A stretch of 64,000 nucleotides of DNA from a virus, in IMG/VR virus record IMGVR_UViG_3300031957_002677, positions 1 through 64,000 of that record, one strand, 5' to 3'. The notes below the pieces were generated by a model. It was not told the DNA's origin. It searched no databases and worked only from the letters and a program-made list of their open reading frames with translations. Positions 33,641 through 61,913 of this stretch are shown in pieces. Each line of letters begins with the position of its first letter. Positions within the stretch are counted from its first letter, which is position 1. The position numbers and the translations under genes were made by a program.

Positions 33641-33699
33641 AATATAGAGCATTTCTAAGGCAAAGTCAAGACCTAGTGTACAGTTCACTTACTGGCACA
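33641..33699 (-). promoter_or_regulatory. Repeated early-promoter element copy 9
   Basis: TGTGCCAGT...AACTGTACAC-6-TTGACT-17-TATATT. Confidence 0.7.
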
Positions 33700-34281
33700 G
33701 TGTACAAACTTTGTGATGGCATATCTATCATTCTCAAGAACATCTGTAACACTATGCTCAATCCAACCAGGAAAAATTACGGTTTTATTATTCTTCGTTT
33801 CAATTTCATGATCATATCTTGGGAAATATAAATTTCCTCCAGCATCTTCTTTATGACAAAGTGTTGTGGTTATTAACACATGCACCCAAGTATCTGAGTG
33901 TGGTTCATATCCATCCCCAGGAAAATATCTTCTAATTTTAGTATAATCTTCACTAGATCTCTGGTATGTAATCCAATAATCATCTTTTGCGATTAAATCA
34001 TCATAAAACTTATCATTATTGAAAAACATATTCTCACAAATCGTTAAGATGTCAGAAATATTACGATAATCATTATGATACACTGAATCTAATGATAAAC
34101 CTTTTGCTGTTGTTAGATATTTTCCTTCATCATCTTTTGCTGCCATATATCCTGCAGGATCCTTGAATTTATTCAAAAGAAAATCAAGTTCTCTCCAAAT
34201 CATGTCATATTGATCTTCATCAAATGTTTCTTCTATGATAACATGAGAGAAAGGTTCAGTGTTAATCTGGTAGTTCATCAT
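33685..34281 (-). CDS. 2OG-Fe(II) oxygenase (prolyl-hydroxylase-like)
   Basis: YEPHSD...GGNLYF...IFPGWIEHSV...RYAIT; likely start MMNYQ. Confidence 0.8.
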   Translation of the reverse strand: MMNYQINTEPFSHVIIEETFDEDQYDMIWRELDFLLNKFKDPAGYMAAKDDEGKYLTTAKGLSLDSVYHNDYRNISDILTICENMFFNNDKFYDDLIAKDDYWITYQRSSEDYTKIRRYFPGDGYEPHSDTWVHVLITTTLCHKEDAGGNLYFPRYDHEIETKNNKTVIFPGWIEHSVTDVLENDRYAITKFVHCASK

Positions 34282-34471
34282 TTTTTTCCAAGAGTTCTTG
34301 CATCGTATCCATAAAATCATCTGCTGAAGATAGAGTATCTAAGGCATGAATCATTTCACCCAATGCTTTAATAAAAAAAGGTTTCTCATTTCTTGCAGCA
34401 AATGCTAATGCTTCACGAAGATGTGTTTGAGCAGAGTCTATTTCTACCCTTACTTGATCAGATAGTGCCAT
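34262..34471 (-). CDS. Conserved small helical hypothetical protein
   Basis: MALSDQV...LREALAFAARNEKP. Confidence 0.7.
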   Translation of the reverse strand: MALSDQVRVEIDSAQTHLREALAFAARNEKPFFIKALGEMIHALDTLSSADDFMDTMQELLEKNDELPD

Positions 34472-35127
34472 TAGTTTTTTCTTCCTGTGTAAATTTTTAG
34501 GTCTTCTTCATATTCAAAATAATCTTCAAGTTCACTATCATCGCAAAAATAGTTTCCCCAACCAGTTGCAATATATTTACTCTTTGAATATACAGGATTT
34601 CCACGATGAGTATGAGTGTAAAATGCGGGCCAAATTAACATCGTCCCTGCTTTTGGTTGTACTCTAAGACCTTGCCAAAGAAACTCACTTTCACCCTCAC
34701 CTTCAGGAATGTCATTCAAATATAACATCCAAGCAACACATCTATCAACAGCACCCAAATCAGTAATCTCACAGTGCCAGTCATGAAATCCACCTCTAGG
34801 TGGAGTTTTTTGAAGTTTTACCTCATCAAAGTTTATAGAAACATAATTAGAAACCCAAAAGATTTTTTGATACTTTTCCCAGCAATACTCTACTGTTTTA
34901 ATAATAAGATCAAATGCTGGACTATGATCCAGATACCACTGATAATCATGCCTAGTTAGATGACCCATTACAGTGCCATCTATTCCCTTCCCAGTTCTAA
35001 GATTGTTGCTTGGATCATCTGGATCCTTATAATTGGAATCAAATAGTGATACTAAAGAATCACAAACATCAATATCCATTACATTTTCATAAAGACCAAT
35101 AAAATCATTATGTTTCATACGACCCAA
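34471..35127 (-). CDS. 2OG-Fe(II) oxygenase (prolyl-hydroxylase-like)
   Basis: FHDWHCE...WMLYLND...GESEF...IWPAFYTHTHRGNP...KYIATGW. Confidence 0.85.
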   Translation of the reverse strand: MGRMKHNDFIGLYENVMDIDVCDSLVSLFDSNYKDPDDPSNNLRTGKGIDGTVMGHLTRHDYQWYLDHSPAFDLIIKTVEYCWEKYQKIFWVSNYVSINFDEVKLQKTPPRGGFHDWHCEITDLGAVDRCVAWMLYLNDIPEGEGESEFLWQGLRVQPKAGTMLIWPAFYTHTHRGNPVYSKSKYIATGWGNYFCDDSELEDYFEYEEDLKIYTGRKN

Positions 35128-36512
35128 GTAATGATAGAAAATCTTGTTCCAGATTTAACTGGCATAATTTCATGTGGGTACATAAAATTAGATGGGAACA
35201 TGATCACATCACCAGCATCCAGTTTATATACCAGTTCACGATTGAATAGTGCAACTTCTCCACCTTCATAAGCATTATTCATTGACACAATCACTGTCAA
35301 TGCTCTAGGTTGTTCTTTGAATGAATCTGTATGTTCAATATAAAAGTCACCCTCTTCATATTTGAGCAGTTCATAACCACTATCCTCCTGGATTTCTAGT
35401 TCAAACTCTGGATGTGCTTCTTGATAAAGTCCGATTAAGTTTTGAACAACCTCAAACATTTGATCATCTAATTGCTTCCTAACCTCAGAATTTTCTTCAG
35501 CAATGATTGATTGTTCAGAGATACAAATTTGTTCACATCTTCTTGCTTCTGGATCGTGACCACTTCCAGTTAATGTTGCTTCCCAATAGTTTGTATTTGC
35601 ATACTCATCTAGGATTTTATCGCATAGTTCAGGATCAACAACTTCTTCACCATACCATACAAAGTCGGCAAGAGATTTAGATGATAATTTGCCAGATGGT
35701 TTTGATTTCTCTTCTACTTTAGGTTCGTTAATCAACTCTGGAGTATCCTTCTTTGTCAAGAACTTTTCATATTTGCTATTAACAATGACTACATCATCAA
35801 AGTCAATATAATCAGTATCATTTACAGGATCTTGCACAATTTCAACTGTTGAAGAGTCTTCATTTTGTTGCTGTTGCTGTCTATACTTCCGAGGAAGAAT
35901 TGTCATGTCACTTACATTAGAAAAGTTTCTCATTTGTTCATACTCCTGTAATAGTTCTTCAGTGTTAATATCTCTAAATTTATTTTTATCAAAGTATGCA
36001 GGACTACACATACCACGACTTCTTACATAATGCAAGAAAAATTGAGTGTACTCTTCACCCTCAAATTCATCTCTCCAATGTGGAGCAATACACCCCAAGT
36101 ATAGCATAGCATCACCAGGATTCAAGTTAACTGATCTATTCTTTCCTTCTGGTGTTTCAATCCAAATTGCCCAAGGTTTATCACTACCAAGGTGCAATGT
36201 CATTGAAATTTCACATCCAGGACGATCAGTATGTCTATGGAGAATACTTCCGTTTCGATATATTCTAGAATAAACGTAAGTGGGAAGAACGGTTTCACCA
36301 ATTAGTTTAGAAACTTCTGGAGTTTTATTTGCCAGAAGTTCTAATGCTGGAAGATAATCATATACTGCTGATGATTTTGGTGCCTGTTCATCACCATTGA
36401 AATCAAAGATTTCATCAGTAACAAAAAACTCTTTCTCTAATTGTGCTGCATGTTGTGGATCAATAAAATTTGGAACAACAATATAGTTGTTCTTCAATAA
36501 TTCAATATTCAT
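35115..36512 (-). CDS. Tandem double-domain 2OG-Fe(II) oxygenase
   Basis: Domain 1: HTDR..CEISMTL...PGDAMLY...HWR...QFFLHY. Domain 2: HTD...YEGGE...FPSNFMYPHEI..V.SGTRFSI. Confidence 0.85.
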   Translation of the reverse strand: MNIELLKNNYIVVPNFIDPQHAAQLEKEFFVTDEIFDFNGDEQAPKSSAVYDYLPALELLANKTPEVSKLIGETVLPTYVYSRIYRNGSILHRHTDRPGCEISMTLHLGSDKPWAIWIETPEGKNRSVNLNPGDAMLYLGCIAPHWRDEFEGEEYTQFFLHYVRSRGMCSPAYFDKNKFRDINTEELLQEYEQMRNFSNVSDMTILPRKYRQQQQQNEDSSTVEIVQDPVNDTDYIDFDDVVIVNSKYEKFLTKKDTPELINEPKVEEKSKPSGKLSSKSLADFVWYGEEVVDPELCDKILDEYANTNYWEATLTGSGHDPEARRCEQICISEQSIIAEENSEVRKQLDDQMFEVVQNLIGLYQEAHPEFELEIQEDSGYELLKYEEGDFYIEHTDSFKEQPRALTVIVSMNNAYEGGEVALFNRELVYKLDAGDVIMFPSNFMYPHEIMPVKSGTRFSIITWVV

Positions 36513-36521
36513 TTCATTCTA

Positions 36522-37856
36522 TCAACTATTCTTATCTAGTACGTCTTTAAGAGCAGCAAACCACTTGACTGCTTTTTCTGCTGGGAATGAATTATCATCT
36601 CTCTCATTATCAGTTAGTGTAGTATAAAGTTGCTCTGGATCAATACCATCCATAAGTGTTAGGATTTCATCAATAGATTTGTCTTCACCACTTTCAATTT
36701 CCTGACGTTCAATGTTAGTCCTAATAAGTTTTTCTTGCTCAGCAGCATAACCACTACTATAAGATGATTCAAGTTTTTGTTTCTGAACTTTTTTATACTC
36801 AACTTCTGCTTTTTCAAATTCACGTTCTACAGCATCATCAAGTTCGTCATATGCTTCTTCTTGAGACATTTTATTGAGAAGATCTTCATGTGCCCTCATA
36901 ATAATATCTAGTTCTTGTTCCTTCTGAATCTCAAATTGAGTTCTTTCTCTCTCCAGTTCTCTCTGAATCCTCTCCCTATTCAAGTTAATTTGATCTTGAA
37001 CTTCTCTATTCTCTAATTCAATAATCTCTAGAACTTGTTTCTGCGATTCAATTTCTATCTTAGAAATATCGAGTTGTTCTTCCTCAAGCAACCTTACTTT
37101 TGCTATCATTTCTTCTCTCATTGCTCTTTCTTTATCTTCGAGAGCAAGATTTTTCTCAGAGTCATCAATTTCACGTTCTATCTTGTCACGTTCCATTTGA
37201 AGCAGTTCTTGATACTGCTTTCGTTCTTCCACAAAGTGTTCCTTTTCTTTCTCAAAATCATGATAAAGTTCATCATATTTTTTAGAAAGTTCTAGAGACT
37301 TTTTCTCGAAGAACTCATCTGCTTTTTGTGCTTCTAACCCTGCTTTTTCGGACTCACGTGCTGCTTTTTCACGTTCAAGTTGAATATTAGCATTTTGTTT
37401 TTCATATTCTAATGCTTGCTCTTTCTTAGACTTTTCATCGTAAAGATTCTCTCTCTCATCACGAAGTTCTTTGTTCTGCCTCTGAAGATCTTCAATAATA
37501 ACAAGTTGTGCTTCTTTCTCCAGTTTATCTAGATTTAATTCCTCGATCTGAGCAGCAAGATTTTCCTCTTCTTTTAGTGCAGATTCAAGTTCTTTTTTCT
37601 CATATACATCCAAAAATGTATTGAAATAATCTAAGTATGGTTGAATAATAGTATTAAATTCATCTTCACCAAAAACTTTATTGGGTGCAGGATCTTCACC
37701 AGGAGTATCTTCATACTCTAGTTCACCTCTACCATCTCTCCATTGAATAGCATGAATAGTCTCGTCATCAAAATCCCAAGGTGCATCATCCTCAAGATCT
37801 ACAGTACGACCATCTACGATAATTTTTTTATCTTCTGGAATAATAGAAATTCTCAT
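36522..37856 (-). CDS. Small globular N-domain plus long Glu-rich coiled coil; possible fibre chaperone
   Basis: IIPEDKKIIVDG...IHAIQW..GRGELEY N-domain, then about 300 aa of E/K/Q-rich helical sequence with net negative charge. Confidence 0.7.
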   Translation of the reverse strand: MRISIIPEDKKIIVDGRTVDLEDDAPWDFDDETIHAIQWRDGRGELEYEDTPGEDPAPNKVFGEDEFNTIIQPYLDYFNTFLDVYEKKELESALKEEENLAAQIEELNLDKLEKEAQLVIIEDLQRQNKELRDERENLYDEKSKKEQALEYEKQNANIQLEREKAARESEKAGLEAQKADEFFEKKSLELSKKYDELYHDFEKEKEHFVEERKQYQELLQMERDKIEREIDDSEKNLALEDKERAMREEMIAKVRLLEEEQLDISKIEIESQKQVLEIIELENREVQDQINLNRERIQRELERERTQFEIQKEQELDIIMRAHEDLLNKMSQEEAYDELDDAVEREFEKAEVEYKKVQKQKLESSYSSGYAAEQEKLIRTNIERQEIESGEDKSIDEILTLMDGIDPEQLYTTLTDNERDDNSFPAEKAVKWFAALKDVLDKNS

Positions 37857-38233
37857 TGTTGATCCTCTTCAGATTTTGGTAGTAAGTTACTTTCTTCAGT
37901 ATTATCTAGTTGTTCGATGTATTCGGAAACATTGACACCCTGATCTTCACACATATCAAGATACATATTACCAACAGCATCTAGCATATTCTGATTGGTT
38001 TCATGTGCTTTCACCATTTCATTTCTAAATGACTCAACAGCAGAACTGGTAGATCTTTGTTGCTGACTGTTTTCAATCATAAGCATTGGCATCCATTGAA
38101 TTGCACACGACCAATGATCTACTTGCTGACCAGTATTAGGATCTTGCCCAGCAATATGTGTGTACCATGCACACTTATGTTCGACACAATCCTTTTTAAT
38201 AAGAGGACACCACTTGCCAGATGCTTTAGTCAT
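37853..38233 (-). CDS. Cys-rich fibre-associated hypothetical protein
   Basis: CPLIKKDCVEHKCAW...CAI.W.P.L.IEN...AVESFRNEMVK; ATAAATA upstream at 38253-38259. Confidence 0.75.
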   Translation of the reverse strand: MTKASGKWCPLIKKDCVEHKCAWYTHIAGQDPNTGQQVDHWSCAIQWMPMLMIENSQQQRSTSSAVESFRNEMVKAHETNQNMLDAVGNMYLDMCEDQGVNVSEYIEQLDNTEESNLLPKSEEDQQ

Positions 38234-38269: not shown

Positions 38270-39532
38270 TCAATCCAAAGTGCAAAGGATCACATCGATA
38301 TATTGAACTCTCAATGGTGATAATGAAGCAACAAAACTAACAGGACTTCCACTAAATGGATGACTATGTGGTTGACCACCACCAGTTGATGATGTTGCTG
38401 GACCTTGAGTATTGCTATTTCTAATAGTACCACCAGGAGTCAAAATTCTCTGTGTTACCCTCACACTTGTAGTTTGTGGATATCTTTGAGGTGTACGATA
38501 TGCTCTTGGTTGCCTATAAGCTGCAGGATTTCTTTGAGGAACTGTAACTCTGAATGGAATATTCACTCGGAAAGAATTTCTCTGTCTGAATGAATATCTC
38601 ACTCTGAATGATCTAGGTTGCCTCTGTCTAAATGATCTCCTCTGCCTAACATTTCTAGGTTGTCTAGTATTACGAGGTTGACGGAAAGATCTTCTCTGCC
38701 TAGAAGATACAGGTCTCCTAAACTGCCTTCTCTGTCTCCACCAACTTACTCTAGGTTGTCTTCTATCTGCTCTTCTTGGGATTCTATCATTTCTCCTTCT
38801 CCTACCCCATCTTCTTCTAGGTGTTCTGTCATTATTTCTGACACTTGCTCTCCAAGATTGACCAATAGGGTTTCTCCATCTTCCACCATCAACACGGAAA
38901 CTGAACGGTCTTCGTGATCTTAAAGGAACACGAAAAGCAATAGGAACTCTGAAACTGATTGGTCTTCTAGAACGTGTAGGGTATCTAACTCTTTGGTTTC
39001 TTGGTTGTCTCTGTCTGAGTGGAACTCTTTGTCTTCGTGGTTGTCTATAGTTACGAGGTTGCCTTACATTAGTTGGTTGTCTAAAGTTGACAATAACACG
39101 GTTATTGATCTGGACTCTTCTTGCCGCTCTAATATTATATCCACGTGGTTGCCTATTACTGGTTCTAAATGGTGAAGAACCAGCAGATGATCTATATGAG
39201 TTTGGATTACTTCCCGTATTATGTGTATGTGCTGGTAATTGTTGAGTGGTAAGTGTAGTACCACCCGAAGAACCTGCAATGGTCGAACTACAATTTGCAT
39301 CTGCACCTGCATCAGCAAATACTGCACTAAAATCAAGTGCTCCAGATGATAATCCACCAGTACCATCTACAACTCTAAGTGATTGATCATTTGCCTGTGT
39401 TTCTTTGGACCATCCAGTTGGTGCTGATGCTTGATAAAACACCATTGTAGAGGATTGTGGAATGATCCCATAAAATGTTGATAATTGAGTACCATTGCCA
39501 AATTCGATCCCATCTGCTCTTAAAATAGACAT
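38270..39532 (-). CDS. Collar-type short tail fibre paralogue with Arg-rich repeat insert
   Basis: IPQ...VFYQASAPTGW...LRVV collar-like region; TLTTQQLPAHTH and GGGQPHSH HxH motifs; LRVQYIDVILC C-terminus; ~250-aa Arg-rich insert between the HxH motifs. Confidence 0.75.
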   Translation of the reverse strand: MSILRADGIEFGNGTQLSTFYGIIPQSSTMVFYQASAPTGWSKETQANDQSLRVVDGTGGLSSGALDFSAVFADAGADANCSSTIAGSSGGTTLTTQQLPAHTHNTGSNPNSYRSSAGSSPFRTSNRQPRGYNIRAARRVQINNRVIVNFRQPTNVRQPRNYRQPRRQRVPLRQRQPRNQRVRYPTRSRRPISFRVPIAFRVPLRSRRPFSFRVDGGRWRNPIGQSWRASVRNNDRTPRRRWGRRRRNDRIPRRADRRQPRVSWWRQRRQFRRPVSSRQRRSFRQPRNTRQPRNVRQRRSFRQRQPRSFRVRYSFRQRNSFRVNIPFRVTVPQRNPAAYRQPRAYRTPQRYPQTTSVRVTQRILTPGGTIRNSNTQGPATSSTGGGQPHSHPFSGSPVSFVASLSPLRVQYIDVILCTLD

Positions 39533-39542
39533 ATATTATACC

Positions 39543-40079
39543 TCAACTAAAACGACAGATAATGACATCAATATACTTAACTCTTAGATCAATATTTCCA
39601 GTATATGGTGATGCTCCACCATTAAATGGGTGAGTATGTGCTGCACCTCCACCAGTTGGTGATGTTGCTGGAGCACTGGTATTTACAGCACGACCACCAA
39701 TACCAGGAGATCCAGGACTTACATTAACCTGAGAACCAGCATTATGAGTATGCCCAGGAATTTGTTGAGTTGTCAATGTTGTAGGTCCTAATGAACCAGC
39801 AGCAGTTACAGTTCCACTAATTGGACGAGTTGATGTGGGAAATATTGTGGAGAATGGTTGTCCACCAGGACCAGCAGTTCCACCAGAACCAAATCCACCA
39901 CCAGTTCCAGATACAACTCTAAGTGCCTTATTATTATGAGAAGTTACTTGTGCCCATCCACTAGGTGCCGATGCCTGATAAAATACTGCAACACTATTTT
40001 GAGGGATAATTCCATATTTAGAGTTCAGAACGGTATTATCAGATCCAAATTGTATACCACTCGTTTGTAAAATAGACAT
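39543..40079 (-). CDS. Collar-type short tail fibre protein
   Basis: Same architecture without the insert (TLTTQQIPGHTH...GGGAAHTH...LRVKYIDVIIC); late promoter ATAAATA at 40114-40120. Confidence 0.8.
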   Translation of the reverse strand: MSILQTSGIQFGSDNTVLNSKYGIIPQNSVAVFYQASAPSGWAQVTSHNNKALRVVSGTGGGFGSGGTAGPGGQPFSTIFPTSTRPISGTVTAAGSLGPTTLTTQQIPGHTHNAGSQVNVSPGSPGIGGRAVNTSAPATSPTGGGAAHTHPFNGGASPYTGNIDLRVKYIDVIICRFS

Positions 40080-40116
40080 ATTATACCAATTACTAACAAC
40101 AGATAACGTGTATTAT

Positions 40117-40797
40117 TTATCCAATATTAAATGCGATGGATATTCTTTCTTCTTGACTAAAGTGTGGTGTAACATAATGTGCGACTGTAGATGGCATTAA
40201 ATAGAAAACATCTTCCTTAGGTTCAATTACCCACTCACAATTCCCAGGAATATCAGCAAAACAAGCATTGTGATTTGATGGATCAGTTCTTAGTAAAGTG
40301 AGTTTACCTTCCTGTTCATTTAGGTTCTTAGGAATTTTTGGATAATAAAGTCCAATAACAGTACATCCAGGATGAGTATGATAAACATTATATCCCATTC
40401 CCTTGTTAATGTTAATCCACCATCCAATTTGATTATCATCTACCCTATAAGTTGCACCAAAGTCTTCCAGCATTTCATTTGTTAGATCGATGGCATTTCT
40501 TGCTAAATTTTGAACAGCAGGAGTTGTTGTTCTTTTGATTGTGGGTAATTCATAAACCTGACTTTGCCATCCTTCACCAAAATTAGATTTTTTCACTCCA
40601 TTAGGAAACTTTCTCATTAGATCATAACATTCATGGATAAGAGATTCGTTATCAATATCTAAAGTGAAAGTATATAGTGGTGTGATGAAGAGGTCATCAC
40701 GACTTTTGTCAGAAACAGTAATCTCTGAGAAATTATCATCGTTTGGACTAATCTCAGCTCTAAATCTGTGCATATCAATCTTGCTCCTCAGTTTCAT
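40117..40797 (-). CDS. Putative 2OG-Fe(II) oxygenase (TIGR02466-like)
   Basis: SNFGEGWQS, WININ..MGYNVYHTHP...GLYY...MPSTVAHYV.P....ERISIAFN. Confidence 0.8.
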   Translation of the reverse strand: MKLRSKIDMHRFRAEISPNDDNFSEITVSDKSRDDLFITPLYTFTLDIDNESLIHECYDLMRKFPNGVKKSNFGEGWQSQVYELPTIKRTTTPAVQNLARNAIDLTNEMLEDFGATYRVDDNQIGWWININKGMGYNVYHTHPGCTVIGLYYPKIPKNLNEQEGKLTLLRTDPSNHNACFADIPGNCEWVIEPKEDVFYLMPSTVAHYVTPHFSQEERISIAFNIG

Positions 40798-41512
40798 TCA
40801 TCATAAAAAATACTTGATTAATTCTATATTCAGCATCACTATAGTGATCACCAAAATAATGTTCACCAGTTAAGTTCATACTATGATAATAATATGATCC
40901 TTCAAACATTGCAAATCTATTAAATTTTGAACGAAAACTAACTACAATTTCCCATAAGTTTTTTGGTGTCCATGGTATTGCATGTTCATCTCTAACACCA
41001 TTATTTTCATCCAGAGGTAAGAGGTCTGGATTATCAGTAATTAATGGTTTATATAAGTTAGTCCCTATCTCATCATTCGTGGATAAGTAACAGATACCAT
41101 TATATCCTCCATCATGATGAGGCCACCAGTAATGACTTTCATATGGATTATCATCAATTCGTGAGAATCTTGTAAAATTAGTTACTATTTCATCCACATC
41201 TGCCGATTCTTGATTACAAATACCTGAGATCTTATTGTATAGTGAAGACATACCAGGATGCTTCATCATATGTCTACGATCCTCAAAGTTCTTGGTGTTG
41301 AGTGTACCTCTACCAAGTTCCCAATCTTCTCCCATTTTCCACAATGGTGGTTCAATAGACAGAAGATATTCATAGACATCATATGGTCTTTTATAAAAAT
41401 TATCCATCCAATAAAAATTGGAAACCTTATCACCATCATAAAACTCAATGATATTCATATTAGAAAAATCATTGGTATCAAACAATGAATGATCATTTGC
41501 AAAATTTTTCAT
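40775..41512 (-). CDS. 2OG-Fe(II) oxygenase-like (DUF6445-like)
   Basis: DNFYKRP..V, PHHD...GICYL...GTNLY, KFNR...F.G..YHS, RINQVFF. Confidence 0.7.
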   Translation of the reverse strand: MKNFANDHSLFDTNDFSNMNIIEFYDGDKVSNFYWMDNFYKRPYDVYEYLLSIEPPLWKMGEDWELGRGTLNTKNFEDRRHMMKHPGMSSLYNKISGICNQESADVDEIVTNFTRFSRIDDNPYESHYWWPHHDGGYNGICYLSTNDEIGTNLYKPLITDNPDLLPLDENNGVRDEHAIPWTPKNLWEIVVSFRSKFNRFAMFEGSYYYHSMNLTGEHYFGDHYSDAEYRINQVFFMMNETEEQD

Positions 41513-42072
41513 AAAAATATCTCCTGTATTTTTTCATCATCTAAACAAAATCCAAAAACCCATAATATTCTAGGAGTATCACCTTTAGTCGGAGTTACTT
41601 CATGATGAATCTCAGATACTTGATATATCAAAAGGTCTGTAGAATTTATGTCTTTATATTCTACACCACCAATGATAGTATGTCCACCCACATCTGCCTG
41701 TTGTGTGATAGCATTGAAGTGAACTGTTTTAGTATTTGGATAATATGTAGGGTCAATATGATTATCTATTCTACCACCTTCATATCCAATTCCATTTACG
41801 ATTCCATGACTATATGATGGTGGACTTTTATACCATTCTAGATGAAAATAATTGATTATTCTTTGCCTGACAATATGTGCAGCATTAGGATATTGTATAT
41901 CTGGAGCAACTGATTCATTTGGAAACCGAGTTGTAAATCTCGTTCCAGGATTATCAGGATCCATGTTAGCATCCTCAAAGAATTCTTGATTACAATTATC
42001 AAGAGTCCATTGATTAAGTGCCTTTACATCATCTTTGAATATAAAATTGCGAAGAATAAATGATTTAGACAT
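41509..42072 (-). CDS. Putative 2OG-Fe(II) oxygenase
   Basis: HIDP...FN..TQ....GG...HHEVTP..G..PRILWVFGF; likely start MSKSFIL. Confidence 0.75.
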   Translation of the reverse strand: MSKSFILRNFIFKDDVKALNQWTLDNCNQEFFEDANMDPDNPGTRFTTRFPNESVAPDIQYPNAAHIVRQRIINYFHLEWYKSPPSYSHGIVNGIGYEGGRIDNHIDPTYYPNTKTVHFNAITQQADVGGHTIIGGVEYKDINSTDLLIYQVSEIHHEVTPTKGDTPRILWVFGFCLDDEKIQEIFL

Positions 42073-42733
42073 CTTGGGTGCAATACTCACCACCACCCTT
42101 TTCTTCATCTGCAAAAGCAAAACTCTCGTATTCTGTATTCAAATTAAATGAAAGAATAATTCTGTCCTCATCACTTTCATTTGGAGCAGTGTAATGAAGA
42201 ACATATGATGGGAAGAAAAGAATAGATCCTTCTCTAATTCCTGGTGGAAGAGTATTACAAATCTCAGTATCTGCTAGATTGGGATTTAGAAATATGGTTG
42301 GTGTGTGTTTATTAGGATCAAATTTAATGAAACAAACAGCACTAAATCCCTGCGATCCATGATTATGAACCTGATGAAACTTACTATGAGTTGCTCTCTC
42401 AAACCAAGACGTACATACTTCTACAGCACACTCAAAGGTATCCGAAAAAGATTCTAATTCTGATTGAAGAATCTGCGTAATCTCTCTATCATAAGTTTCT
42501 CCAGTATCATGATTATGATGATAGTCAGTTTCCACATCTAGAGAAGATTCTGAACCTGTAGCAATCTTAAATTTATCTCTTTCATCCCTTCTCCGTTCAA
42601 ACATATCAAGGAGAATTGCTTTCTTTTCCTCCCAGTCTTCTACTTTAAGATGTAGAAGTGGAACAGAAAACATAGGAATCAAGTATTCACTATGCCCTTC
42701 AGGAACTTCACAGTATAAATGAAAATTTGACAT
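42065..42733 (-). CDS. Putative 2OG-Fe(II) oxygenase (TIGR02466-like)
   Basis: HQVHNHG...FSAVCF...EGSILFFPSYVLHYT.PN....RIILSFN. Confidence 0.8.
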   Translation of the reverse strand: MSNFHLYCEVPEGHSEYLIPMFSVPLLHLKVEDWEEKKAILLDMFERRRDERDKFKIATGSESSLDVETDYHHNHDTGETYDREITQILQSELESFSDTFECAVEVCTSWFERATHSKFHQVHNHGSQGFSAVCFIKFDPNKHTPTIFLNPNLADTEICNTLPPGIREGSILFFPSYVLHYTAPNESDEDRIILSFNLNTEYESFAFADEEKGGGEYCTQDV

Positions 42734-61820: not shown

Positions 61821-61913
61821 TGGAAGTGGTGGGACTCGAACCCACAACCGCGCACTAATCTGGTGCATACAGAAGGTATAAGCTTCTCGCTCTGCCAATT
61901 GAGCTACACTTCC
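61821..61913 (-). tRNA. tRNA with UAU anticodon (nominally Ile) and long variable arm
   Basis: Acceptor GGAAGTG/CACTTCC-A, D arm GCTC/GAGC, anticodon stem AGAAG-CTTATAC-CTTCT, ~25-nt variable arm, T arm GTGGG-TTCGAGT-CCCAC; CCA not encoded. Confidence 0.85.

What the first reader, a model, noticed from the sequence alone, without database searches (positions are those of the whole stretch)
38417..39166. ~250-aa Arg-rich, Lys-free hexapeptide repeat inserted at the tip of a tail-fibre paralogue
Seen: between its two HxH motifs the 178-aa paralogue has 35 residues and this protein has about 284. The insert has about 78 Arg by hand count (~31%), no Lys, no Glu and four Asp. It is built of R-x-(P/R)-x-x-(F/Y/V) units (RQPRNY, RVPIAF, RQRRSF, RQPRAY) in two arms around a central Trp/Asp-containing segment. 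Known: in T4 gp12/gp37-type tips the chain between HxH motifs runs out to the distal end and back. Inference: a long polycationic hairpin needle that binds anionic surface polymer or membrane. Exclusive use of Arg in an AT-rich genome where Lys is common suggests the guanidinium group is specifically needed, or is the modified group.
Basis: partly seen in the sequence, partly recalled or inferred. Interest (0 to 1): 0.8.

Follow-up and report, generated by a model that had tools for sequence, protein, structure and literature searches.

The report
Arginine-coated hairpin needle on cyanophage fibre
A marine cyanophage tail-fibre tip protein has a conserved 284-residue insert, 28% arginine and lysine-free, that most likely folds into one very long two-armed beta-hairpin; what this highly positive rod binds is untested.

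Summary
ORF 38270-39532 (minus strand, 420 aa) has HxH motifs at residues 102 and 389. The 284 residues between them hold 79 Arg, 0 Lys, 0 Glu and 4 Asp. It is not an artefact: contigs from four studies carry it unchanged, cultured phage S-SCSM1 has a gapless 77%-identical orthologue, and over 60 metagenomic protein clusters share it. dN/dS is 0.17-0.37. The repeat consensus is h-R-q-P-R-q. Residues alternate between a hydrophobic face and an Arg/Pro face. AlphaFold2 (monomer) folds it as one long antiparallel hairpin that turns at W242-G243.

The best reading is a T4 gp37-like out-and-back needle with an arginine-coated surface and no histidine-iron core. Its function, probably gripping anionic host surface polymers, is inferred. 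In relatives Arg is replaced by Gln/Asn, almost never Lys.

The gene always lies in one block: short paralogue, Arg protein, Cys-rich protein, then an acidic helical protein. That protein is 432-493 aa only where the insert exists. Its length and charge track the insert, although acidity predates it. Two oxygenase families occur only in these loci.

This scan has already found and followed up the same element on other genomes. I found no paper describing it.

The parts
38270..39532 (-). Whole gene for the 420-aa Arg-rich fibre-tip protein
   Evidence: ORF list. 77% identical, gapless orthologue SSCSM1_245. Over 60 homologous clusters.
39221..39532 (-). Residues 1-104: N-terminal attachment region and first half of the tip domain, ending in HxH-1 (H102-T-H104)
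   Evidence: Aligns with the 178-aa paralogue and 55 other short paralogues. A profile of the short paralogues matches PDB 9qgo and 9nxk fibre tips across both HxH motifs.
38369..39220 (-). Residues 105-388: the 284-aa insert between the two HxH motifs (79 R, 0 K, 0 E, 4 D)
   Evidence: Composition. Insert length 275-365 aa across the family. dN/dS 0.17-0.37 against L008, L003 and L005.
38807..39166 (-). Residues 123-242: outgoing arm. Hexads are xxxRQP, then RPxSFR. One face is hydrophobic/Gln and the other is Arg/Pro/Asn.
   Evidence: AlphaFold2 strands 124-207 at pLDDT 70-84. Hexad rows and period-2/3 peaks. Column classes.
38804..38806 (-). G243: predicted hairpin turn, flanked by PRRRW and RRRRND
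   Evidence: The register i+j=487 centres on 243/244. Relatives have a central G or GG flanked by poly-Arg.
38438..38803 (-). Residues 244-365: returning arm (RQRRSF, RQPRNT, SFRVRY and similar units), an amphipathic strand
   Evidence: AlphaFold2 strands 278-363. Pro-Arg cross-strand pairs peak at 19 and Arg-Arg pairs are lowest at 7 at i+j=487.
38270..38368 (-). Residues 389-420 plus stop: HxH-2 (H389-S-H391) and the C-terminal strand LRVQYIDVILC
   Evidence: Invariant H389, H391, Y411, D413, I415 and C417 in 49 family members.
39543..40079 (-). 178-aa short paralogue with 35 aa between its HxH motifs
   Evidence: The S-SCSM1 orthologue is annotated as a virion protein.
37853..38233 (-). 126-aa Cys-rich protein, present after the fibre-tip paralogues in every locus examined
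   Evidence: Synteny tables.
36522..37856 (-). 444-aa acidic protein (net -59). It has a conserved N-domain of about 70 aa, then a helix-prone region of about 295 aa free of Pro/Gly (residues 74-368).
   Evidence: N-domain AlphaFold2 model at pLDDT 90.8. The long form occurs only in loci with the Arg insert.
40117..42733 (-). Four upstream oxygenase-like genes: 40117-40797, 40775-41512, 41509-42120 and 42065-42733
   Evidence: PF13759/TIGR02466 hits for the first and fourth. All four have conserved HxD/H...H...R motifs. HMMs of the second and third hit only loci with the Arg insert.
33685..36512 (-). Three downstream oxygenase genes: two-domain 35115-36512, then 34471-35127 and 33685-34320 (PF13640)
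   Evidence: Pfam. The two-domain gene follows the fibre module in nearly all cyanomyophage loci.

Best explanation
The gene encodes a small cyanomyophage fibre-tip protein of the T4 gp12/gp37/gp10 HxH type. Its distal loop has been expanded into a 284-residue amphipathic beta-hairpin of two arms of about 120-140 residues that turn at W242-G243.

By analogy with gp37, I infer that three chains assemble with the hydrophobic faces (F/Y/V/I/L/Q) inward and the Arg/Pro faces outward. That would give a rod tens of nanometres long carrying about +75 charges per chain. Unlike gp37 it has no His-metal core.

I infer that the rod makes multivalent contacts with anionic or H-bond-accepting polymers of the Synechococcus/Prochlorococcus surface during adsorption. 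Contacts based on guanidinium and amide groups could survive seawater ionic strength.

I further infer that the co-encoded acidic helical protein, whose helix is lengthened only in these loci, acts as an assembly escort that shields the polycation in the cytoplasm. The lineage-specific oxygenases may hydroxylate the repeat.

Shown here: the sequence, its conservation, purifying selection, the synteny and the co-variation. Predicted: the hairpin. Inferred only: trimer state, binding target, escort role and modification.
For: Reality and conservation:
- Independent contigs are identical.
- S-SCSM1 has a gapless orthologue.
- Over 60 clusters exist, many with an insert of exactly 284 aa.
- dN/dS is 0.17-0.37 in arms and tip.

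Fibre-tip identity:
- A profile of 56 short paralogues matches the solved fibre tips 9qgo (Pvc13, E 1.5e-11) and 9nxk (phage Pa223, E 7.5e-7) across both HxH motifs.
- The S-SCSM1 authors report HHpred matches to T4 gp12, gp37 and gp10 at about 99%.

Hairpin:
- AlphaFold2 gives strands 124-207 and 278-363, antiparallel, at pLDDT 70-84.
- Both arms alternate between hydrophobic and Arg/Pro residues.
- Hydrophobic cross-strand pairs appear only at odd registers. Pro-Arg pairs peak and Arg-Arg pairs are lowest at the AlphaFold2 register.
- Relatives have a central G/GG flanked by poly-Arg.

Lysine exclusion: 3432 R against 6 K.

Partner:
- In 19 loci, insert length against acidic-protein length gives r=0.95, and net charges give r=-0.91.
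- The 432-493-aa form is found only beside the insert. In 39 loci with short paralogues it is 133-305 aa.

Oxygenases:
- HMMs of the families of 40775-41512 and 41509-42120 hit 16 and 15 insert-bearing loci and no short-form locus.
- Published precedent predicts that tail-collar proteins co-encoded with dioxygenases are their substrates (PMC2938197).
Against: - The model is a monomer with mean pLDDT 58.6. The tip (residues 208-277) and the collar parts are below 50. No trimer could be predicted.
- A proline every six residues is unusual for a closed beta-barrel.
- The S-SCSM1 record marks the short paralogue as a virion protein but not the Arg-rich one or its two partners. Tryptic mass spectrometry would handle an Arg-rich protein poorly.
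- The acidic family is already strongly acidic (net -12 to -62) where no insert exists, so acidity did not arise to neutralise the arginines.
- The 19 loci are related and fall into about five lineages, so the correlations overstate independent support.
- The oxygenase link could reflect shared ancestry of one phage group.
- No binding, expression or modification data exist.
Confidence: 0.5

Rival explanations
1. The insert is mainly a substrate scaffold. Its repeated Pro/Arg/Asn/Gln positions are hydroxylated by the co-encoded 2OG-Fe(II) oxygenases. The modified rod, rather than bare arginine, is the functional surface, as in hydroxyproline-rich structural proteins. This can coexist with the needle reading.
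For: - Seven oxygenase genes (eight domains) bracket the module.
- Two oxygenase families are found only in loci with the insert: 16 and 15 loci against 0 short-form loci.
- Prolines are the best-conserved insert residues.
- Three neighbours, one of them two-domain, carry PF13640, the prolyl-4-hydroxylase-type domain.
- Iyer et al. predicted that tail-collar proteins co-encoded with dioxygenases are their substrates (PMC2938197).
- The upstream slot of short-form loci holds other modifying enzymes: radical SAM/SPASM and carbamoyltransferase.
Against: - There is no chemical evidence.
- S-SCSM1 carries 24 such genes scattered over its genome, and its authors read them as metabolic genes.
- The two-domain oxygenase accompanies the fibre module whether or not the insert is present.
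- Iyer et al. read the cyanophage dioxygenase arrays as secondary-metabolite enzymes.
- Co-occurrence may be phylogenetic.
Confidence: 0.25
2. The Arg-rich protein is not a virion fibre. It is an intracellular polycation, for example a nucleic-acid or polyanion binder used during infection, built on a recycled fibre-tip scaffold and kept in check by the acidic neighbour.
For: - It is not flagged as a virion protein in the S-SCSM1 record, whereas the short paralogue is.
- The block lies among oxygenase, helicase and nblA genes rather than in the main structural cluster.
- Its charge density is comparable to that of nucleic-acid-binding proteins (my own estimate).
Against: - It keeps the complete N-terminal region and both halves of the tip domain, with all invariant residues of the virion paralogue.
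- It occupies the position of the last short paralogue in a module conserved in all cyanomyophage loci examined.
- Tryptic proteomics is biased against it.
Confidence: 0.12
3. The insert is an intrinsically disordered low-complexity spacer or linker without a defined fold.
For: - Low-complexity composition.
- The central 70 residues and the collar parts are modelled with pLDDT below 50.
- No structural match in the PDB.
Against: - The insert is exactly 284 aa in many clusters that differ by 10-30% in sequence, with no indels.
- dN/dS is about 0.2-0.3.
- Strict period-2 amphipathicity and the hexad phase are kept in both arms and are complementary between arms.
- The arms are modelled at pLDDT 70-84.
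Confidence: 0.08
4. The long and short paralogues co-assemble into a heterotrimer. A fibre tip would then carry only one or two hairpins, which would need the acidic helix as a permanent structural partner.
For: - The two proteins share about 50% identity over the N-terminal region and both halves of the tip domain.
- They are always adjacent.
- Other cyanomyophages carry two or three tandem paralogues.
Against: - There is no direct evidence.
- Known relatives of this domain are homotrimers (PMC12609058; 9qgo).
- The acidic protein is not flagged as a virion protein in S-SCSM1.
Confidence: 0.05

Closest known systems
Receptor-binding tip of T4 long tail fibre gp37 (collar, needle, head; PDB 2XGF), as described in PMC12609058 section 13
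   Same: A trimeric fibre tip with HxH motifs in which the chain runs out to the distal end and doubles back, giving a needle of six strands. The S-SCSM1 orthologues of both paralogues score about 99% in HHpred against gp12, gp37 or gp10. The predicted hairpin here has the same out-and-back topology.
   Different: The gp37 needle has seven HxH motifs that bind iron along its core. Here only two HxH motifs flank the insert and none lies within its 284 residues. The arms are several times longer. The surface is about one-third arginine. No separate head domain is recognisable, only a poly-Arg turn. The PDB profile search did not retrieve 2XGF.
Synechococcus phage S-SCSM1 gp245 (QFG06509.1, 'short tail fiber protein') with gp244, gp246 and gp247
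   Same: A syntenic orthologue: 77% identical and gapless through the insert. It has the same neighbours, including all seven oxygenase genes.
   Different: It is only annotated by homology to gp12. The paper never mentions arginine or the insert. It is the only one of 50,697 phage records with the long form.
Fibre tips of Photorhabdus PVC Pvc13 (PDB 9qgo) and Pseudomonas phage Pa223 (PDB 9nxk)
   Same: These are the closest solved sequence relatives of the scaffold. Both HxH motifs and the GGGxxHxH segment align.
   Different: Their loops between the HxH motifs are about 45-55 residues and are not Arg-rich.
Tail-fibre assembly proteins (Tfa of Mu/lambda type): a conserved N-domain plus a variable C-terminal part matched to the fibre tip. 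This comparison is from my own knowledge, not checked here.
   Same: The acidic neighbour has a conserved N-domain shared by all loci and a variable C-terminal helical part whose length follows the fibre's insert.
   Different: No sequence or fold relationship was found. Pfam returned no Tfa-type family (one of 28 N-domains gave a stray hit to an unrelated herpesvirus family). Fold searches reached at most Z 4.2.
Arg/aromatic beta-hairpin antimicrobial peptides (tachyplesin, polyphemusin) and Pro/Arg-rich peptides. This is an analogy from my own knowledge.
   Same: Alternating Arg and aromatic/hydrophobic residues in an antiparallel hairpin. Such peptides bind anionic outer-membrane lipids.
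   Different: Those peptides are 17-40 residues long, disulfide-stapled and monomeric. This insert is 284 residues, has no Cys and sits in a fibre scaffold. No homology is implied.

Membership tests
T4 gp37/gp12/gp10-type HxH fibre-tip domain | Detectable sequence homology of the scaffold to solved members | tested here: met
   The profile of 56 short paralogues hits 9qgo at E 1.5e-11 and 9nxk at E 7.5e-7 across both HxH motifs. HHpred at about 99% to gp12, gp37 and gp10 is reported by the S-SCSM1 authors. 2XGF itself was not retrieved by hmmsearch.
T4 gp37/gp12/gp10-type HxH fibre-tip domain | Conserved HxH metal-binding motifs | tested here: met
   H102, H104, H389 and H391 are invariant in 49 family members. 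H110, H112, H148 and H150 are invariant in 56 short paralogues. Metal binding itself is not testable here.
gp37-type needle domain | The chain doubles back, so outgoing and returning strands pair | tested here: met
   AlphaFold2 monomer hairpin 124-207 / 278-363. Sequence register analysis. This is a prediction only.
gp37-type needle domain | Repeated HxH motifs along the needle coordinating iron in the core | tested here: not met
   There is no His in the 284-residue insert.
gp37-type needle domain | Homotrimer forming a six-stranded barrel | not testable with these tools
   Only monomer prediction was available.
Pfam PF07484 (Phage tail collar domain) | Match to the Pfam model | tested here: not met
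   hmmscan at E up to 0.1 gave no family for either paralogue. One JGI record names a homologue 'microcystin-dependent protein'.
Tail-fibre assembly chaperones (PF16778 / Tfa-like), for the acidic neighbour | Match of the conserved N-domain to the family model or fold | tested here: not met
   None of 28 N-domains hit PF16778 at E up to 0.01. The fold searches were uninformative: Foldseek E at least 0.5 and VIA Z at most 4.2, so the fold question is inconclusive.
2OG-Fe(II) oxygenases, for the four upstream genes | HxD/E...H facial triad plus a 2OG-binding basic residue | tested here: met
   40775-41512: H132, D134, H210, R230. 41509-42120: H121, D123, H173, R184. The two TIGR02466-like genes have HxH...H...R. 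Pfam PF13759 hits 40117-40797 and 42065-42733 only.
Protein substrate of co-encoded hydroxylases | Hydroxylated residues in the mature protein | not testable with these tools
   Only gene co-occurrence is available, plus a published prediction for tail-collar proteins.

The most novel reading that the evidence does not exclude
The block is a dedicated three-part system. It comprises a fibre tip extended into a giant arginine-coated beta-hairpin, an acidic helix matched to it in length and charge that sheathes it until host contact, and lineage-specific 2OG oxygenases that hydroxylate the repeat. This would be a post-translationally tailored polycationic adhesin with no counterpart among described phage fibres.
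Probability: 0.2. Interest if true: 0.85.

Novelty: new variant of a known kind. Interest (0 to 1): 0.62.

Why it matters
Receptor recognition by marine T4-like cyanophages is poorly understood, yet it shapes which Synechococcus and Prochlorococcus lineages are killed. This insert would be a new way to build a fibre tip: a gp37-like out-and-back needle with no metal core and a surface more densely charged than DNA. It is kept lysine-free across dozens of lineages.

The insert also gives a concrete candidate substrate for the long-unexplained arrays of 2OG-Fe(II) oxygenases in cyanophage genomes. The acidic partner offers a testable case of a partner that co-varies in charge and length.

S-SCSM1 is cultured and infects both genera, so every part of this is testable.

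Tried and rejected
Context came from IMG/VR loci instead.
- Pfam, PHROGs and NCBIfam gave no useful family for the Arg protein, the short paralogue, the Cys-rich protein or the acidic protein. The only hits were one weak PHROG 'tail protein' (E 3.4e-5) for the Arg protein and a sub-threshold NCBIfam hit for the acidic protein.
- Foldseek of the 420-aa model against the PDB found nothing significant, only long-hairpin pore and knob proteins at E at least 0.5.
- Fold searches with the confident N-domain model of the acidic protein found nothing: Foldseek E at least 0.5 and VIA Z at most 4.2.
- The protein atlas gave no usable lead.
- A literature search for cyanophage + tail fiber + arginine-rich found no paper.
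- No RNA holder is listed among sequencing runs, so there is no evidence on expression either way.
- The T4 late-promoter motif TATAAATA is not near these genes and is not enriched in the window.
- The tree of the tip-domain cores is unresolved at depth. I could not tell whether the insert arose once, or whether the two extra-long lineages are sisters.
- The frameshift or alternative-frame idea is rejected. The frame is open for 1263 nt, is under purifying selection and is conserved as protein.
- Assembly artefact is rejected.
- One 573-aa acidic homologue beside short paralogues (L032) turned out to be a roughly 300-aa acidic protein fused to an unrelated C-terminal part, so it is not a counter-example.
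Full report
**1. Observation**

The minus-strand ORF 38270-39532 encodes 420 aa. It has HTH at residues 102-104 and HSH at 389-391. The 284 residues between them contain 79 Arg, 30 Pro, 27 Gln, 22 Asn and 5 Trp, with 4 Asp, no Lys and no Glu. The paralogue immediately upstream in transcription order (39543-40079, 178 aa) has 35 residues between its two HTH motifs. Every count he gave is right to within one residue. Ten neighbouring proteins contain 4.4% Lys and 3.7% Arg, so the composition is extreme for this genome.

**2. It is real**

- Contigs from four sequencing runs of four studies carry 38270-40079 with no differences and no indel in this ORF. One of these runs was not flagged as a possible source.
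- The cultured phage S-SCSM1 has a syntenic orthologue, 77% identical and gapless through the insert.
- A protein search found over 60 clusters aligned over the full length, down to 32% identity. Inserts are 275-365 aa, Arg is 12-30% and Lys is almost absent.
- Many clusters that differ by 10-30% in sequence keep exactly 284 residues.
- dN/dS against three relatives is 0.17-0.32 in the arms and 0.18-0.37 in the central part, no higher than in the flanking tip domain.
- A profile of the insert alone, run against 1.84 billion representative proteins, found 30 hits. The 15 below E 1e-10 all have this same architecture (two are short fragments), and the full-length ones are 411-516 aa.
- Among 50,697 phage records, only S-SCSM1 has the long form.

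**3. Scaffold**

Pfam does not recognise either paralogue. A profile of 56 short paralogues matches two solved fibre tips across both HxH motifs. These are Photorhabdus PVC Pvc13 (9qgo, E 1.5e-11) and Pseudomonas phage Pa223 (9nxk, E 7.5e-7). The S-SCSM1 authors report HHpred matches of about 99% to T4 gp12, gp37 and gp10.

In gp37-type tips the chain doubles back at the distal end, so the needle has six strands, and HxH motifs bind iron along it (PMC12609058). The loop between the two HxH motifs is therefore the distal part. Its length varies among relatives: 35 aa here in the short paralogue, about 45-55 aa in the solved tips, and 275-365 aa in this family.

**4. Anatomy of the insert**

- Written in rows of six, the outgoing arm reads xxxRQP, then RPxSFR. 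The returning arm reads RQRRSF, RQPRNT, SFRVRY and similar units.
- The family consensus is h-R-q-P-R-q.
- Alternate residues form a hydrophobic/Gln face (F, Y, V, I, L, Q) and an Arg/Pro/Asn face, which is the signature of amphipathic beta strands.
- AlphaFold2 on 49 family members (monomer only) gives one antiparallel hairpin with strands 124-207 and 278-363 at pLDDT 70-84. The register is i+j of about 487. The tip (208-277) is of low confidence, and so are the collar parts, as expected for a chain taken out of an interwoven trimer.
- A register scan on the sequence agrees with this. Hydrophobic-hydrophobic cross-strand pairs occur only at odd i+j. At 487, and at every sixth register from it, Pro-Arg pairs peak at 19 and Arg-Arg pairs are lowest at 7.
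- Register 487 places the turn at W242-G243, inside PRRRW-G-RRRRND. Distant relatives have G or GG flanked by poly-Arg at the same central place, for example RRRQRRGGRRRRR.
- If the pairing runs the whole way, each arm is about 120-140 residues. By my estimate from strand geometry, that is a rod of roughly 30-45 nm.
- The best-conserved insert residues are prolines (P153, P159, P177, P222, P286, P342) with Q152, Q158, R135 and R310.

**5. Arginine versus lysine**

In 51 clusters there are 3432 Arg and 6 Lys in 14,719 insert residues. An AGA-to-AAA change is a single transition in an AT-rich genome, so Lys is actively excluded. However, in the lower-Arg lineages the columns that hold Arg here hold R 39%, Q 15%, N 10%, P 9% and K 0.4%. 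Across the family the Arg fraction is inversely related to Q+N (r=-0.61). The requirement therefore looks like a planar, multiply H-bonding side chain (guanidinium or amide), with charge varying by lineage. It does not look like a requirement for guanidinium alone. The alignment of repeats between distant lineages is uncertain, but the compositional trend does not depend on it.

**6. Context**

IMG/VR loci show a core module in cyanomyophages: two or three short tip paralogues, a 110-130-aa Cys-rich protein, usually an acidic protein, then a two-domain oxygenase. In every locus where the last paralogue carries the Arg-rich insert, the order is as follows:

1. Four oxygenase-like genes
2. Short paralogue
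3. Arg protein
4. Cys-rich protein
5. Long acidic protein
6. Two-domain oxygenase
7. In most loci, one or two more oxygenase genes

This covers about 25 loci in roughly five lineages, reaching down to 30% identity.

*The acidic protein.*
- It has a conserved N-domain of about 70 aa (AlphaFold2 pLDDT 90.8, no recognisable PDB relative).
- Here that domain is followed by a region of about 295 aa free of Pro/Gly and rich in E, K and R.
- Beside the insert it is 432-493 aa. In 39 loci with only short paralogues it is 133-305 aa.
- Across 19 insert-bearing loci, insert length and acidic-protein length correlate at r=0.95. Net charges correlate at r=-0.91, for example +69/-59 here, +45/-47 in L010 and +37/-38 in L011.
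- Two caveats apply. The loci are related, and the tree cannot show how many independent changes there were. The family is also already very acidic (net -12 to -62) where there is no insert.
- So the lengthening of the helix is specific to the insert, but acidity as such is older.

*The oxygenases.*
- All four upstream genes keep HxD/H...H...R motifs.
- HMMs of the families of 40775-41512 and 41509-42120 hit 16 and 15 insert-bearing loci and none of the short-form loci. The two TIGR02466-like genes also occur elsewhere.
- In short-form loci the upstream slot holds other modifying enzymes: two radical SAM/SPASM proteins, a carbamoyltransferase, and a PF13640 oxygenase.
- Iyer et al. (PMC2938197) predicted that tail-collar proteins co-encoded with dioxygenases are their substrates. 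They read the cyanophage dioxygenase arrays as secondary-metabolite enzymes.

**7. Interpretation**

I read the protein as a gp37-like fibre tip whose distal loop became a very long amphipathic beta-hairpin. By analogy it would assemble as a trimer with a hydrophobic core and an arginine-coated surface of about +75 per chain.

The most likely job is multivalent binding to anionic or H-bond-accepting surface polymers of the host. In seawater, simple charge attraction is screened, which could explain a preference for guanidinium and amide groups over lysine. This last point is my inference.

The lengthened acidic helix is best explained as an escort that masks the polycation during assembly. A permanent sheath is possible but less likely. 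In the S-SCSM1 record, of this block only the short paralogue is annotated as a virion protein, and the acidic protein, which has many tryptic sites, is not. The Arg protein's absence from that annotation is weak evidence, because trypsin would shred it. Hydroxylation by the insert-specific oxygenases is plausible but untested.

**8. Novelty**

The topology is that of a known kind, the gp37 needle. The defining chemistry of that needle, HxH-iron repeats, is absent. The arginine coat, the hexad repeat, the size and the co-varying partner are not described in any paper I could find.

This scan has already met and followed up the same element on several other genomes, with similar conclusions. 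My analysis was done on this window and on loci fetched here, and it agrees with those conclusions on most points. It does not reproduce the PF16778 assignment for the acidic protein.

Noticed in passing
window 38270-39532 compared with L081: Mosaic divergence inside the gene. Against L081 the two tip-domain parts are nearly identical (dS 0.01 and 0) and the central tip has dS 0.085, but both arms have dS 0.33-0.37. This suggests recombination that exchanged the arms.
   Followed up: no
L021:6607-9148, L036:5884-7305, L025:9222-9791: In cyanomyophage loci with only short tip paralogues, the slot just upstream holds other modifying enzymes. These are two radical SAM/SPASM proteins, a carbamoyltransferase and a PF13640 oxygenase. 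The fibre-tip module may generally travel with tailoring enzymes.
   Followed up: partly
P0130, P0131 and other weak hits: Proteins of 400-565 aa without the HxH tip domain carry similar Q/P/R/N/Y repeats (QEPNIRxARQPSTYRNPV and similar). One has a globular C-terminal domain. The repeat type may exist in other marine fibrous proteins, or the match may be compositional.
   Followed up: no
S-SCSM1 record, L103:1259-1332, L101:1501-1574, L103:1501-1573: S-SCSM1 encodes tRNA-Arg(UCU), tRNA-Pro(UGG) and tRNA-Asn(GUU) among its nine tRNAs. 58 of the 82 Arg codons of this gene are AGA. This fits the decoding demand of the insert, but such tRNAs are common in cyanophages.
   Followed up: partly
window 39533-39545 and 40080-40095: Both paralogues are preceded by the same short string, GGTATAAT, one or three bases before the ATG.
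   Followed up: no
window 61821-61913: A 93-nt tRNA-Ile gene with anticodon TAT, longer than usual.
   Followed up: no
window 40117-40797 and 42065-42733: The two TIGR02466/PF13759-like proteins conserve HxH...H...R rather than the usual HxD/E...H triad.
   Followed up: no
P0002, P0009, P0015, P0018-P0020: Some family members end with an extra conserved tail, DDAATKFG(I/L), after the usual C-terminus.
   Followed up: no
L032:4047-5768: In one short-form locus the acidic protein (about 300 aa) is fused to an unrelated C-terminal domain of about 270 aa.
   Followed up: partly
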